Shown one piece after another: positions 1 to 12,900 of a stretch of 64,000 nucleotides of DNA. Location of the stretch: contig CAVWLP010000002.1 of the NCBI GenBank assembly GCA_963755915.1, positions 3,584,001 to 3,648,000 of the forward strand, read 5' to 3'. The position numbers were made by a program, and so were the translations under genes. Numbering within the stretch: position 1 is the stretch's first letter; the number at the start of each line of letters is the position of its first letter. The notes below the pieces were generated by a model. It was given only the letters and a program-made list of their open reading frames with translations, was not told where the DNA came from and made no database searches. This DNA is from an uncultured Phycisphaerales bacterium (lineage in GTDB: Bacteria > Planctomycetota > Phycisphaerae > Tepidisphaerales > Tepidisphaeraceae).

Positions 1-87
1 TAATGTTTACCGGATTATGCCAAAAAAATTGCCAAAACCAGGAGTTCAGCATTGACGCTTATATTTCGGCCAGGGAGAATGAAATGC

Positions 88-497
88 AGCCGGGTTCACA
101 TATTTGTGCCGCCCGGCTGACCTCCGAATGACTAGGGCCCGGCCACAGGAGCCCGGGCTCGAATCCTGCTGATAGCGGCCTCGATTATTCCGCCAGCAGG
201 AAGCCATGCCGAGGTCACTCAGGAGCGCTGGCAACAATGCCAGTGATTAGGACATGAATGCCGGGACTAAATCCATCTCCAACAGGCCGAATTCCACGAA
301 CTTGACCTCTACGGAGAACGATTCAGATAACACCGCTGCTTACATGCACCTGATCCACACAGCCGATAGCAGATGCTGCATACCCAAATATACATGCATC
401 TTCGCTATCGCCTCGTGGCTCCGCCACGGGCTCCCGCGAACTTTCCCCTAACAAATGGGGAAAGCCCTGGGGATATCGGCGAGGCGATATCCCCAGG
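88..497 (-). ncRNA. Candidate structured RNA downstream of the RT
   Basis: Stem-loops at 88-119, 137-158, 165-200, 364-410, 412-430, 441-464 and 466-497 (perfect 13-bp stem). There is no convincing ORF here. Confidence 0.45.
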
Positions 498-550
498 AGA
501 ACGCTGGACGATAACCGATCTCTAACTCCCTCGTTTTGCGATTGAACGTT

Positions 551-1650
551 CTAAGCCTCTGCGATTGCCGAAGCCTCACAACCAGGGAACAGGATCCCGG
601 ATTGAATTCTGCTCCATTGAATGTGTGCCCTCCGCCATGCCGCATCGAATTCCTCGAATACCGGAAAACCAGCAACACCATTGGCTCTAGCTTGTCGGGC
701 CGCATACCAGTGAATCCGCTGGCGTGGGCTGTCCAAGTATGCGGGTCCCATTTGCGCCGTCCAGGCCACTACTCGCGCTGCTAGGGAGGTGTGAGGGTTG
801 ACGGTCCGCATCAAGGGATGTGTGATCCCGTAGTAAAGATTTTCCAGTGCGCAGCGTGCCCGGCAGCACAATCAATCCCTCGGAGGACCATCTGATGCGA
901 TATCCCAGCCACTCTGCTTCTTGCCGGTTAATATCAACGATATTCTTGTTGCCGGCCTTGGGTTCTTTGCAGCGCAAACCAGTGGGTGCTAAAAGCTTCA
1001 TCAGCGTAGCCTGCGCCTCTTCAGCTTCTTCACTGGATGTACAGGGAACGAGAATGTCGTCTGCAAAGCGCAACAGCGGAGCTGCACAATGCCGCCTCCA
1101 TGGGCGGTCCAGATGGTGATCGGCGTAAACATTCAGAAATAAACTTGATGTCGCGGCGCCCTGTCGGATGCCGATCCTTTTTGGCGTCTCGATCAATTTC
1201 CGTAGGAGCGAATGCAGATTCTCGTGGATTTTCTCGTTGTGCTGGCGGCGCTTAATCTCTTCGCTGGGTTTCACTGGAATATATTTTCGCAGAACTTGCA
1301 GTAATGGCGCTTGCGGCACATTCTCGAACGCATTTGCTAAATCCGCGCAAACCCAAATTTGTCTGCCCTCGATAACCAATTTTTCAGCGACGGCGAGAGC
1401 ATGGGAGCGACTACGATTGGGCCTGCCTCCGAACGAATGATCGCTGAATCCGACATCCAGCCACGGGCCTATCACCTGCATGACGCTACGATGGATTACC
1501 CGGTCCCACAGCGTTGGGATCTGTATGGGGCGCGTTCCAATCCCAGATGCTTTGGGGACAGCGATGAGCCGGACTGGCCCATGCTGGTACCCCCCCGAAT
1601 CGATCTCATCGCGGACTGCCCGGACAAATTCAAAGCGATCGGGGATATGC
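551..1650 (-). pseudogene. Group II intron-like reverse transcriptase, 5'-truncated, one frameshift near 860
   Basis: The frame of ORF 687..1481 stays open upstream, reading GGYQHGPVRLIAVPKASGIGTRPIQIPTLWDRVIHRSV (RT1-2). It continues SFGGRPNRS, ADLANAFENV, GIRQGAATSSLFLNVY, catalytic RFADD and WLGYRI. The C-terminus (VVAWTAQMGPAY, domain-X-like) is in ORF 551..871. No RT0 region or start is visible before the junction at ~1650. Confidence 0.85.
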
Positions 1651-1651
1651 G

Positions 1652-1828
1652 CCCGGAGCCATTGCCGTCGCGTGGACCTTGCGCCACGCCGCCGTCACCG
1701 GCGCGATCGTCGGTGCTCGCAAACCTGAACAGGTGGACGACGTCGTTGCTGCCGGGACGATTCATCTGACTCAGTCAGACCTCGCTGAAATCGAAATGAC
1801 GGGCGAACTCGCCGGGAGGGGCCAATGA
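1652..1828 (+). pseudogene. Aldo/keto reductase, C-terminal fragment only
   Basis: My translation reads PGAIAVAWTLRHAAVTGAIVGARKPEQVDDVVAAGTIHLTQSDLAEIE, a typical AKR C-terminus. Its TGA overlaps the ATG of the next gene (ATGA). It is not in the ORF track. Confidence 0.8.
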
Positions 1829-3820: not shown

Positions 3821-6069
3821 TTTGGGCGACGGGTGGCGCGACTGGGACGACCCCATACGAGATCGAGTTCAATACCAAACATTTGACGCTCGACGCGACA
3901 ACCATTAATGGAAATGCCACGAGTGGAATTGAGGTTGACAGCGGTAATACATTGGTGTTCGATGGGGGCGGTAACACCAGTAGTAATGAGTATCTTTCCC
4001 TCGGGGCTGTCCAGTCGTGGATAATCAATGGCACTCTGAACTTCCAGAATTTTGGTAGCGGTTCCAGTCTCGCAATGACTCTCTCCGACGGTCTTACCAT
4101 CGAAGGCAGCGGCACGACAAATATTCCTGATAAAATTAATGGTACAGGCGCGCTCACGATTGATGGCACCGGCGTGGTAAGCCTCGCGGGTTCGGGCACG
4201 ACCGACACCTACACCGGGCAGCTGTCGATCGAATCCGGCACGCTGCAGGTCAACGCGGCAAATAACCAAAGCGGAAATGGCGAGCTAGGGGCCAGCTCCA
4301 ACACAAATCCAATCATCATGGGCGGCAGCGGCACCACCGGCACCTTGGAATACACGGGAACCAGCAATGAAGGCTCAAACAGGTCGATCAACCTGGCTGC
4401 GAGCGGGATTGGCGCCGTTAAGGTGGATATCTCGGGCGTGACCCTCACACTGAACGGGGCGATCAGCGGAGGTGGCTCCCTCTCCATGAACGGCGGCGGA
4501 AACTTGCTTCTCAGCGGCGCGACATATACGTATACCGGCGGTACCACCGTTAACAGCGGAACGCTCATCATCGCCAACTCCAGCGGCTCCGCCACGGGAA
4601 CGGGCAACGTCACGATGAACGGTGGAGTCCTCGCAAGCTCCGGGACAACCGCGGCGATTTCCGGAAATGTCGTCGATGGCGGAACCTCTGCCTACACGAT
4701 CGCGCCCGGCGGTATCGGAACTGTGGGCACGCTTACGCTCGCCGGTTTGACGACGACTTTGCTTGGCACTCTGAACTTCGACCTCGGCACAGGCTCCGGC
4801 ACAATCACCAACGGCGATCTGCTCGTTTTGGGCTCGGGAACCGTAAGCATTGGATCAGGCACAGTCATGACTTTCGGCGGCACGCCCGTCGCAGGCGACG
4901 ATTATCAACTCATCGGCGATCAAAGCGACGGCTCGGTTGTCGGAGCGATCCCGCTGTCGAACTTCACGCTGCCGGCGGCCTCAGCGGGCTTAAGTTATAG
5001 CCTTGCCGACAATTCCGGCTACATCGATCTGGATGTCACCACCTCCGGCCCGCCCAATGTCACGTGGAACGATGCCTTTGCCAACAATCTTTGGGATACC
5101 ACCAGCTCAAACTGGACCAATGGCTCCAGCAACACAACCTACTCCGATGGCAGCAACGTCACTTTCAACGACAGCAATGGCGGAAATTACTCTGTCACGC
5201 TCACCACCACAGTCAGCCCCGCTTCCGTGACCGTCAGCAGTTCCGGAAATTATTCCATCACCGGCGGCGGCGCGATCGTCGCCACCGGCGGTTTCACCAA
5301 GACCGGCTCTAGCACGCTCACCCTTGGCGCCGGCCTCACCGCCTCCAGCATCGCGATCAACGAGGGAAGCGTTGTCATTGCCAGCAATACCTCGGCAGGC
5401 ACCTGGACCGTCGCTCAACCCAACAGCAACATCGAAATCTCGTCGCTGACGATCGCCGCCAACAGCACGCTGGATATCACCAACAATCATCTGATCATCG
5501 ACTACGGTGGCAGCGATCCGATGGCCACGATTTATGGCTATCTCAAGACCGGCTTCAACAACGGCACCTGGAACGGTACCACGGGAATTATTTCCAGCAC
5601 CGCGCAAACTCCGACCAACGGACTGCATTATGGAATTGGCTTTGCCGATGGAAATGACGGGACACATGCAGTCGCCGGCGTTACCAGCGGCGAAATCGAG
5701 CTGAAGTACACGCTGCTGGGCGACGCCAATCTTGACGGCACCGTCAACGGCTCCGACTTCTCAATCCTCGCCGCCAACTTCGGCCTCGGCGCGACCGACT
5801 GGGACCAGGGCAACTTCCTCTACGGCTCTTCGGTCAATGGCTCCGACTTCAGCGCCTTAGCCGCCAACTTCGGCCAGGGCGACAGCGGAGCGGCGGTGAG
5901 CGTTTCGCAGGCTGACATCATGGCGCTGGATGCGTTTGCCATCGCGAATGGACTGGCGCTGCCGACGAACGTGCCGGAGCCGGCTTCGCTGGGATTGCTG
6001 ACGCTTGGCGGGATGGGGGTGCTGCGGCGGCGTAGACGCCGAATAGAGACGGAAAGCGTAAAGGCTTAA
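3820..6069 (+). CDS. PEP-CTERM surface protein with autotransporter-associated beta-strand repeats and dockerin-like module, 5' end missing
   Basis: YTGGTTVNSGTL-type repeats, GDANLDGTVNGSDF duplicated motif, and VPEPASLGLL plus a basic tail. There is no signal peptide, and the ORF's nominal start (3739) lies inside the opposite-strand hydrolase fragment. Confidence 0.85.
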   Translation: MWATGGATGTTPYEIEFNTKHLTLDATTINGNATSGIEVDSGNTLVFDGGGNTSSNEYLSLGAVQSWIINGTLNFQNFGSGSSLAMTLSDGLTIEGSGTTNIPDKINGTGALTIDGTGVVSLAGSGTTDTYTGQLSIESGTLQVNAANNQSGNGELGASSNTNPIIMGGSGTTGTLEYTGTSNEGSNRSINLAASGIGAVKVDISGVTLTLNGAISGGGSLSMNGGGNLLLSGATYTYTGGTTVNSGTLIIANSSGSATGTGNVTMNGGVLASSGTTAAISGNVVDGGTSAYTIAPGGIGTVGTLTLAGLTTTLLGTLNFDLGTGSGTITNGDLLVLGSGTVSIGSGTVMTFGGTPVAGDDYQLIGDQSDGSVVGAIPLSNFTLPAASAGLSYSLADNSGYIDLDVTTSGPPNVTWNDAFANNLWDTTSSNWTNGSSNTTYSDGSNVTFNDSNGGNYSVTLTTTVSPASVTVSSSGNYSITGGGAIVATGGFTKTGSSTLTLGAGLTASSIAINEGSVVIASNTSAGTWTVAQPNSNIEISSLTIAANSTLDITNNHLIIDYGGSDPMATIYGYLKTGFNNGTWNGTTGIISSTAQTPTNGLHYGIGFADGNDGTHAVAGVTSGEIELKYTLLGDANLDGTVNGSDFSILAANFGLGATDWDQGNFLYGSSVNGSDFSALAANFGQGDSGAAVSVSQADIMALDAFAIANGLALPTNVPEPASLGLLTLGGMGVLRRRRRRIETESVKA

Positions 6070-8748: not shown

Positions 8749-8790
8749 CAGCGTTCAAACACCGACTCCCGCCGCGACACGTTCGTCTTG

Positions 8791-8838
8791 GCAGGAGTCA
8801 TCAGCCGGCAAGGCGGTTATCGGGGGACTCCATCCCCG
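8791..8838 (-). ncRNA. Fluoride (crcB) riboswitch aptamer
   Basis: Minus strand GGGGATGGAGTCCCCC-GATAACCGCC-TTGCC-GGCTGATGACTCCTGC matches the consensus, including the GGAGT/ACTCC pseudoknot. Confidence 0.9.
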
Positions 8839-8846
8839 TTCGTCCC

Positions 8847-9251: not shown

Positions 9252-9351
9252 CTGCTAACTCCTGCCCAAAAGTGGGCCGTCCTTGAGCAGAGCCCGCAGT
9301 AGGAATTGGAGATCACGCGATCAACCGCTGAATTCCCGCGAGCTCTTGCCC

Positions 9352-9422
9352 GTAGGAGTCATCAGCACAGTCCGTGATCTGGCAGGATCGAAAGACCAGC
9401 AGTTATGGCGAACTCCATCGCC
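9352..9422 (-). ncRNA. Fluoride (crcB) riboswitch aptamer upstream of the TPR gene
   Basis: Minus strand GGCGATGGAGTTCGCC-ATAACTGC...GCTGATGACTCCTAC, canonical with an extended internal insert. TATAAT lies upstream at 9444-9449. Confidence 0.9.
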
Positions 9423-9703
9423 AACGTCAGCACAAGTCCAGCTATTATATCGGCAGTATTGAAAACATCGATCAGCGAACACCAACCGCAGGTATTTGGC
9501 GCGTTATACCTCTCAGGTTACAAGCCCGGATACCGGCGCCGTGCTAAGGCAACCAGAGATATAATTCGCCAACCGGCCAGAAAATAGATCGTGCAAAAGG
9601 GGAACTGCAGATCGCCAGGTCCAGGAAGTTTCGGTGAGCGTGCGGTTTGTATCGCTGATTCATCGATCCACACCTATGATCAGGTGCGACGTGTGAATCT
9701 GCC

Positions 9704-12530: not shown

Positions 12531-12745
12531 GTGCGCCGGGAAGACCGACAAGGAGTACCGAATGAAACAGTCGCACGATGAAGGCTCCGCCAGCTACATC
12601 GACCCCGAGTCATGCGTCGGCGATCGCAAGGCCGCCGGCGAAGCGTTGACAGGGGTACATGCGGGCCGGGGTAGTGAGCTGCGAAATAACTTTTTCCTCA
12701 GCGATGCCGACGCCGTTGAGCGAAGTGGAAGCCAAGATCGACGAT
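12531..12745 (+). mobile_element. Group II intron 5' remnant (domain I start only)
   Basis: Begins GTGCGCCGGGAA (GUGYG consensus). It contains CCCCGAGTCATGCG...GGCGAAGCGTTGACAGGGGTAC.TGCGGGCC, which I recognise from bacterial group II intron 5' regions. No IEP or domain V follows. Confidence 0.65.
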
Positions 12746-12900
12746 GGCGCCAACCGCCAACTCGCCGACCAAAGAACTCAGTCAGGACACAAAATTCCTA
12801 GCTAGCCACTGATCTGAATCGCGGGCGGCACAAGCCCCAAAAGAACAATTAAAGAACGGCATTCCACTAATCGCGTGGCCCTGTCAGCGATTTTCAACGC

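What the first reader, a model, noticed from the sequence alone, without database searches (positions are those of the whole stretch)
60..1650. Group II-like RT followed by ~400 nt of stacked hairpins that lack intron domains V/VI
Seen: an RT with FADD and an unusual C-terminal AWTAQMGPAY segment, followed on the same strand by at least seven stem-loops. Four are back to back at 364-497. In the 364-410 and 165-200 stems, plus-strand C/A mismatches become G-U pairs on the RT strand. I found no domain V hairpin with the AGC/CGC triad. Known: non-intron RTs (retrons, several DRT systems) work with an adjacent structured RNA. Inference: this may be an uncharacterised RT-ncRNA system. This copy is 5'-truncated and may be inactive.
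Basis: partly seen in the sequence, partly recalled or inferred. Interest (0 to 1): 0.75.

Follow-up and report, generated by a model that had tools for sequence, protein, structure and literature searches.

The report
Planctomycete RT system with partner RNA
A broken reverse transcriptase gene sits beside about 400 bases of hairpins that were recovered from environmental RNA libraries and likely belong to a conserved non-coding RNA shared across a large, little-studied family of these enzymes (likely the group once named G2L5), which would be an undescribed RNA-copying system carried on mobile DNA.

Summary
The hairpins are real (z -6.4) and no intron RNA is present. The RT is truly 5'-truncated; its frameshift at 853 is an assembly error. 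It falls in a clade separate from group II intron, DGR and CRISPR RTs, whose DN-type members match the 2008 G2L5 sequences. The family has at least 150 clusters at 50% identity, an upstream SF2-helicase-like partner without ATPase motifs (25 of 33 loci), frequent RNase H fusions and integrase/ParB neighbours. Folding downstream on the RT strand is not conserved. Instead a covarying three-hairpin module (invariant GC-UYC-GC hairpin, short stem, terminator-like stem) sits just 5' of the RT or just after its thumb in about 40 relatives, often ending a 400-460 nt structured region. The window matches this module at 408-508 on the + strand, antisense to the RT, behind a promoter-like site at 52-80. 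Three metatranscriptome runs of one study each hold one contig, all inside 101-498. The window match is modest (21 bits; missed by a second model). Best reading: a dead RT with a still-transcribed partner ncRNA from an undescribed G2L5-lineage RT-ncRNA-helicase module. cDNA synthesis and function are inferred.

The parts
52..80 (+). Sigma70-like promoter (TTGACG-17-GAGAAT), predicted to start the RNA at about 87
   Evidence: 2 sites found, 1.6 expected by chance, so weak alone. A similar site lies 373-381 nt before the module in L110, L120 and L141, against 333 nt here.
86..498 (+). Predicted ncRNA of about 410 nt; strand inferred, not shown
   Evidence: RNA-library contigs at 103-354, 101-337 and 346-498, no mismatches, nothing else on 3.5 kb. 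Fold; the 300 nt before the module fold at z -4.3.
86..120 (+). 5' hairpin of the predicted RNA; two RNA contigs end in its loop (101, 103)
   Evidence: The three full-length relatives also begin with a hairpin.
364..410 (.). Long irregular hairpin just before the module; two of its pairs are G-U only on the minus strand
408..508 (+). Family three-hairpin module: bulged stem capped by GGC-TCC-GCC (core 417-425), hairpin 440-465, 13-bp hairpin 466-497; no U-run here
   Evidence: Best hit in the 64 kb for model R1, built without the window: 21.4 bits, E 0.00087, E 0.011 over 811 kb. Ranks first of 28 descriptor matches in the genome. Not listed by model R2 at E up to 1.
551..1649 (-). 5'-truncated G2L5-lineage reverse transcriptase (FADD); lacks about 95 N-terminal residues, first in-frame start at 1481; likely inactive
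   Evidence: (65% identity to P0001 from 1646 down)
740..769 (-). Thumb (domain X-like) motif AWTAQMGPAY, the family's GWxxxxGP
853..853 (.). Extra base in the assembly that causes the apparent frameshift
   Evidence: Absent from contigs of 4 of 4 short-read runs
1652..1828 (+). 3' fragment of an aldo/keto reductase gene; marks the deletion that removed the RT 5' end and, by inference, the upstream partner gene
   Evidence: Pfam PF00248, profile positions 241-287 of 291; junction bridged by a contig

Best explanation
The locus is a 5'-truncated, likely inactive copy of a planctomycete group II-like reverse transcriptase (likely the G2L5 lineage), and the hairpins beside it are likely the system's partner non-coding RNA of about 410 nt, predicted to be read from its own promoter on the opposite strand. 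In intact relatives the module is a helicase-like protein without ATPase motifs, a 400-460 nt structured RNA and the RT, often fused to RNase H, carried on integrative elements. Inferred mechanism: the RT recognises the conserved three-hairpin 3' end of the RNA and copies part of the RNA into DNA; RNase H, fused or from the host, removes the template; the helicase-like partner binds the product. The most likely use of that DNA or RNA-DNA hybrid is upkeep or spread of the integrative element, for example priming its replication. Shown: RT clade, partner, fusions, covarying module, RNA-library contigs. Inferred: strand and ends of the RNA, membership of the window's hairpins, every enzymatic step and the function.
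For: Tree: the window lies in a 40-row clade (SH-aLRT 99, quick tree) apart from 23 intron-type, DGR and CRISPR RT rows. Partner directly upstream in 25 of 33 loci, tyrosine integrase in 9 of 33, ParB-like in 9 of 33; partner is SF2-helicase-like with no Walker A or DExH consensus. RNase H in 10 of 33 loci by motif (Pfam strong for one and weak for one of two checked) and in 30 of the 47 long proteins picked from 145 representatives. Model R1: all 36 rows at E up to 0.11 lie at a family RT, and the best hit in 22 control loci has E 2.1. Covariation: 23 of 26 pairs change on both sides, score 0.463 against 0.139 shuffled and at most 0.112 slid; 16 of 26 on the unfitted 9-row alignment. The 300 nt before the module fold at z -2 or lower in 16 of 21 5'-type loci against 2 of 21 RT-core controls. 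Three relatives align from promoter to U-run, with 39 of 141 pairs compensatory. RNA contigs in 3 of 3 runs lie only within 101-498. The family's second copy in this genome lies inside a 75 kb island bounded by a 45 bp tRNA-Asp repeat.
Against: The window is the only antisense case among 44 RT-linked rows. Model R2 (30 sequences) does not list it at E up to 1, and the own-genome R2 search missed it, scoring only 150 of 9487 candidates. Its 5' 320 nt show no sequence similarity to any relative. It lacks the U-run, and its 364-410 stem gains two G-U pairs on the minus strand. The RNA evidence is contigs from one study, with no strand and chosen by holding part of 1-2400; DNA carry-over is not excluded. 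The descriptor was written after seeing the window, and the next site is only 0.8 kcal/mol behind. The RT-core control is coding sequence, and the 3'-type loci show no excess (5 of 11 against 5 of 11). The three full-length relatives have RTs 61-76% identical, so they are not independent. Seven of 8 rows of one subclade have DN instead of DD, and three of them keep a module hit, so cDNA synthesis may be dispensable. No cDNA or replication was observed.
Confidence: 0.55

Rival explanations
1. The family module is real, but this window's hairpins are an unrelated small RNA or a terminator cluster between two convergent genes, and the model match is chance.
For: Only antisense case; R2 does not list it; no similarity in the 5' part; no related DNA in 140 other genomes of the family beyond one 27-base match.
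Against: A model built without the window finds its best 64 kb hit 43 nt from the RT stop. The site ranks first of 606 core sites in the genome after the descriptor filter. Promoter spacing, 5' hairpin and length resemble L110, L120 and L141. One RNA contig ends at 498, the foot of the last stem. No terminator-like site was found among the hairpins.
Confidence: 0.17
2. The system works like a retron or class 2 DRT in anti-phage defence: the RT makes cDNA from the RNA and the helicase-like protein is the effector or sensor.
For: The partner-RNA-RT order resembles tripartite retrons (recalled). The window borders PD-T4-3 and IetA/IetS genes.
Against: Only 8 of 111 neighbouring ORFs, in 6 of 25 loci, hit PADLOC at 1e-20, and 3 of the 8 (two loci) match the PD-T4-6 models and read as generic kinases. 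The neighbours that recur are integrase, HTH, ParB-like and AAA genes. The RT's top PADLOC and NCBIfam scores are to generic and intron RT models, far above UG, DRT or retron models.
Confidence: 0.15
3. The module acts without reverse transcription: either as a protein-bound attenuator or RNP scaffold, or at DNA level as an origin whose complementary strand forms a GNA-triloop mini-hairpin.
For: The core pairs never vary (30 of 30 for two pairs), as in a protein-binding site. The module occurs 5' of, 3' of and antisense to the RT. DN-type RTs keep it and the partner lacks ATPase motifs. The minus strand reads GGC-GGA-GCC; the stability of such DNA hairpins is recalled.
Against: Most representatives keep DD and many carry RNase H. 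U-runs after the last stem, promoter-like sites and RNA contigs point to an RNA 3' end.
Confidence: 0.1
4. It is a degenerate or unusual group II intron whose domains V and VI are unrecognisable.
For: Closest solved and curated relatives are intron maturases; a domain X-like motif is present.
Against: No Rfam intron hit; 137 bits against a cut-off of 300 for TIGR04416 on the truncated protein; separate clade; module upstream of the RT in most relatives; no near-identical second copy in this genome, whereas a true intron has 13.
Confidence: 0.03

Closest known systems
G2L5 group II-like RTs (Simon and Zimmerly 2008, PMC2602772)
   Same: Planctomycete origin. The supplement's sequences share motifs by eye with L095 and L088, and the about 500-aa N-terminal extension of ZP_01854760.1 carries the partner's motifs. 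The DN-type rows fall in the same clade as the window.
   Different: G2L5 was defined from three sequences by DD-to-DN and by the absence of an RNA structure. The window and most of the family keep DD, the extension is usually a separate gene, many carry RNase H, and a conserved RNA module is present.
G2L4 RT (bioRxiv 10.1101/2022.03.14.484287)
   Same: Free-standing group II-like RT, often near tyrosine recombinases, with conserved palindromic sequence upstream (one passage).
   Different: YIDD, proteobacterial, acts in double-strand break repair. The family profile scores 87 bits on it against 150-169 on IIC maturases. No partner or RNase H was seen in the passage read.
Retrons and ncRNA-dependent DRTs (DRT2, DRT3, DRT9, DRT10)
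   Same: RT with an adjacent structured ncRNA and often a partner gene (recalled; search listings).
   Different: Different RT lineages (for DGR and intron rows only). No long a1/a2-type closing stem in the consensus (3 pairs). Mobile-element rather than defence context.
Group II introns
   Same: RT core, RT0 motif in intact relatives and a domain X-like thumb.
   Different: No domain V/VI or D1-D4 match; separate clade; the RNA module lies upstream, in the linker or antisense.
RT-1 to RT-19 RNA motifs (Weinberg 2017, PMC5737381)
   Same: Structured RNAs next to bacterial RT genes, of unknown function.
   Different: No Rfam match at gathering score in the window or in 9 family loci. The paper's supplementary alignments were not examined.
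ColE1-type priming and tyrosine-recombinase retrotransposons (DIRS); both recalled, not tested
   Same: A long structured RNA plus RNase H at an origin (ColE1); RT, RNase H and a tyrosine recombinase in one element (DIRS).
   Different: ColE1 uses host polymerase I. DIRS elements are eukaryotic with LTR-type RTs. No origin activity or retro-copies were shown here.

Membership tests
Group II intron | Domain V/VI after the ORF, or D1-D4 before it | tested here: not met
Group II intron | RT placed among intron-encoded proteins | tested here: not met
   Separate 40-row clade, SH-aLRT 99, quick tree with a limited reference set
Group II intron | Splicing of the precursor | not testable with these tools
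   No joints were seen, but only three short RNA contigs were laid
G2L5 | Group II-like RT without intron RNA, in planctomycetes | tested here: met
G2L5 | Sequence kinship to the three defining proteins | tested here: inconclusive
   Motif-level match by eye between the supplement's sequences and L095/L088; they were not put in the tree
G2L5 | DD-to-DN active site | tested here: not met
   The window has FADD; DN occurs in 7 of 8 rows of one subclade and in L038
G2L5 | About 500-aa N-terminal extension | tested here: inconclusive
   5' end deleted in the window; in relatives the matching protein is a separate upstream gene in 25 of 33 loci
G2L4 | YIDD active site and upstream long direct repeats | tested here: not met
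   FADD here; YIDD in 2 of 145 representatives. Upstream repeats were not searched for.
Retron | Retron-clade RT (NAxxH, VTG; motifs recalled) | tested here: not met
   Absent from the alignment; retron model 26 bits against a cut-off of 235. No retron row was in the tree.
Retron | msr-msd closed by a1/a2 repeats, branched msDNA | tested here: inconclusive
   Only 3 end-to-end pairs in the consensus of three relatives; msDNA cannot be tested here
DRT / UG-Abi | RT matches a UG or DRT profile best | tested here: not met
   Best UG model 58 bits against 133 for a generic RT model
DRT / UG-Abi | Anti-phage activity | not testable with these tools
   Neighbourhood only
DGR | DGR-clade RT with Avd and TR/VR repeats | tested here: not met
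   Three DGR rows form their own clade; no Avd-like cluster among recurring neighbours. TR/VR repeats were not searched for directly.

The most novel reading that the evidence does not exclude
A class of planctomycete integrative elements that replicates or primes its DNA through its own RT, RNase H and a dedicated 400-460 nt RNA in place of a primase-helicase module: a bacterial counterpart of tyrosine-recombinase retroelements, or a ColE1-like origin with a self-encoded polymerase.
Probability: 0.22. Interest if true: 0.92.

Novelty: new variant of a known kind. Interest (0 to 1): 0.78.

Why it matters
G2L5 has stood since 2008 as three unexplained sequences said to lack an RNA. Here it appears as a family of at least 150 clusters with a partner gene, frequent RNase H fusions and a covarying RNA module. 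That gives a defined RNA, enzyme and partner to reconstitute, and makes testable how intron-derived RTs are taken into new roles. A compact bacterial RT-RNase H with its own template RNA could also be a tool enzyme. Six literature searches found no description of this RNA, partner or fusion; they cover open-licence papers only, and the clades added by Toro et al. 2019 and myRT's G2Lb may already hold these proteins under another label.

Tried and rejected
Intron, retron, DRT, DGR and G2L4 membership: see Membership tests. Sense-strand downstream RNA as a family trait: rejected. DNA context for the closest relatives P0001 (68%) and P0006 (53%) was not obtained: scans of genome, metagenome and viral contigs found none, and the cluster look-up could not be made, so conservation within the window's own subclade stays untested. 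The nearest relatives with DNA are about 40% identical. A profile of the 5' part of the three full-length RNAs hit only those three. Model R2 over 141 genomes gave 3 hits: two training loci and one with no RT or partner within 1.5 kb. The first motif search returned only a protein-coding motif of the partner. G-U counts and z-scores did not fix the strand. Lack of RNA cover on the RT and neighbouring genes comes from contigs and does not show that they are silent. The careful tree did not finish; the quick tree is reported. No structure or complex prediction was run. Four look-ups in earlier findings returned nothing. In the 2008 paper's supplement, file 1 and four .doc files could not be read; bioRxiv supplements are closed.

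Full report
Observation. The minus strand carries an RT with FADD (PF00078), whose C-terminal frame ends at 551. The stretch 60-560 folds far below shuffles on both strands (z -6.38 minus; -6.90 plus), and only 4 of 7768 random windows of this genome beat 360-500 after correcting for composition. Rfam finds no intron or other family there. Short-read contigs from 4 runs of one study all lack one base at 853, so the frameshift is an assembly error; one contig spans 1108-2408, so the 5' truncation is real. Homology to the closest relative starts at 1646 and the 3' end of an aldo/keto reductase gene follows, which indicates a deletion. The first in-frame start is at 1481, so the copy is likely dead.

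The protein family. Searches gave 33 genome loci, 34 of 36 metagenome pattern matches that score on the family profile (a few duplicate other loci) and 150 listed clusters at 50% identity, all above 400 bits. In a quick IQ-TREE run of 63 rows, the window groups with P0001 and P0006 inside a 40-row clade (SH-aLRT 99), apart from 23 intron-type, DGR and CRISPR rows (one outgroup row, L010, is from an unpublished genome and no claim depends on it). Simon and Zimmerly (PMC2602772; passages and one supplementary file seen) defined G2L5 by DN at the active site, a 500-aa N-terminal extension and no intron RNA. Their sequences match L095 and L088 motif for motif by eye, and the extension of ZP_01854760.1 carries the motifs of the partner found here. 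Toro and Nisa-Martinez (PMC4244168, passages) place G2L5 in Planctomyces and Blastopirellula with unresolved affinity; the myRT paper (PMC8934634, passages) and a 2021 review (PMC8632793, passages) add no function. The lineage is therefore likely an expanded G2L5, although the window itself fails the DN criterion.

Neighbours. A protein of about 500 aa lies directly upstream on the same strand in 25 of 33 loci; a tyrosine integrase occurs in 9 of 33 and a ParB-like gene in 9 of 33. The partner resembles phage SF2 helicases (score 0.97), but its alignment has no Walker A or DExH consensus. RNase H is fused in 10 of 33 loci by motif and in 30 of the 47 long proteins that I picked from 145 representatives. 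This genome's second copy sits in a 75 kb island bounded by a 45 bp tRNA-Asp repeat. Eight of 111 neighbouring ORFs, in 6 of 25 loci, hit PADLOC, three of them on kinase-type models. The window itself borders PD-T4-3 and IetA/IetS genes just outside its left edge.

The 800 nt after the stop have no BLASTN match in 32 relatives. Sense-strand folding there reaches z -3 in 4 of 45 loci, the window included, against 5.7% of 617 control stretches (17 loci were left out as non-family, broken or duplicate, and 7 were too short).

A conserved module exists elsewhere. A mini-hairpin GC-TYC-GC recurred at two fixed distances from the RT core, followed by a short hairpin and a long GC-rich hairpin, often with a T-run. 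Model R1, from 9 relatives without the window, gave 63 rows at E up to 5 over 92 sources; all 36 rows at E up to 0.11 lie at a family RT (ten are training sequences or a duplicate), and the best hit in 22 control loci has E 2.1. Of 48 rows classified (13 weaker rows and 2 window rows dropped), 28 lie just 5' of the RT in sense, 15 just after the thumb in sense, some inside the RT-RNase H linker, 1 antisense (the window) and 4 far away. Covariation is strong: 23 of 26 pairs, score 0.463 against 0.139 (alignment fitted to the model) and 16 of 26 on the plain alignment. In 5'-type loci the partner's conserved part ends 316 nt or more before the module in 13 of 16 measurable cases, and the 300 nt before the module fold at z -2 or lower in 16 of 21 against 2 of 21 coding controls. 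Three related loci align from a promoter-like site to the U-run over about 460 nt, with 39 of 141 pairs compensatory. Rfam has no match in 9 such loci, so these do not appear to be the RT-1 to RT-19 motifs (PMC5737381, passages).

Does the window belong? For: R1's best hit in 64 kb is 408-508 on the + strand, 43 nt from the RT stop (21.4 bits, E 0.00087; next 16.1). A descriptor passed by 18 of 31 family sites leaves 28 of 606 core sites in the genome, and the window ranks first. A promoter-like site lies 333 nt before the module, against 373-381 in the three relatives. Three metatranscriptome runs of another study each hold one contig on a 3.5 kb stretch, at 103-354, 101-337 and 346-498, without mismatches; two end in the loop of the first hairpin and one at the foot of the last. 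Against: it is the only antisense case; R2 does not list it; the 5' body has no sequence match; there is no U-run; the RNA data are unstranded contigs of one study; and strict promoter-like sites were found in only 6 of 48 rows. I put membership at about 0.75 to 0.8.

Mechanism. Shown: the parts and their conservation. Inferred: the RT binds the invariant 3' module, copies part of the RNA, RNase H removes the template and the ATPase-less partner binds the product. I favour a role in upkeep or spread of the integrative element, because the cassette follows integrase, HTH and ParB-like genes where small integrative elements usually keep their replication genes (recalled), and defence neighbours are few. 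Retron-like defence and a role without reverse transcription remain open; the DN subclade argues that catalysis is not always needed.

Verdict. A real, previously unconnected RT-ncRNA-partner system on a named but unexplained RT lineage, seen here through a broken copy whose RNA is likely still made. New variant of a known kind; interest 0.78.

Noticed in passing
window 2176: The apparent frameshift in the NAD-dependent dehydrogenase gene (1825-2762) is likely another assembly error: one run's contig has an extra C there.
   Followed up: partly
window 12567-12778 (+): Rfam group-II-D1D4-6 hit (111 bits). No RT match lies next to it, so it may be an ORF-less or truncated intron; the genome has 13 copies of an intron RT elsewhere.
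   Followed up: no
window 8785-8846 and 9346-9431 (-): Two fluoride riboswitches about 500 nt apart.
   Followed up: no
L002:7379-13689 (just left of the window): Defence cluster: PD-T4-3 GIY-YIG nuclease, HTH, IetA/IetS and a type III restriction fragment.
   Followed up: partly
G000:C2:2086711-2161779: A 75 kb island at tRNA-Asp with a 45 bp direct repeat; the second family RT is directly preceded by an integrase N-terminal fragment, with no partner gene or module hit.
   Followed up: partly
L074-L081, L116, L136: The RNA module lies in frame inside the RT-RNase H linker; L136 keeps a T-run there, so partial termination could give RT with or without RNase H.
   Followed up: partly
L040, L041: A different, weakly scoring RNase H-like domain is fused to the RT, suggesting a second independent capture.
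   Followed up: no
P0034, P0077: Other C-terminal fusions in the family: AAA_25 and HTH_17.
   Followed up: no
L151 (G016:C103:2421-2496): A module-like hit (30.9 bits) with no RT or partner within 1.5 kb.
   Followed up: partly
window 4577-4664 (+): Second-best R1 hit (16.1 bits) lies inside a long glycine-rich ORF and is probably chance.
   Followed up: no
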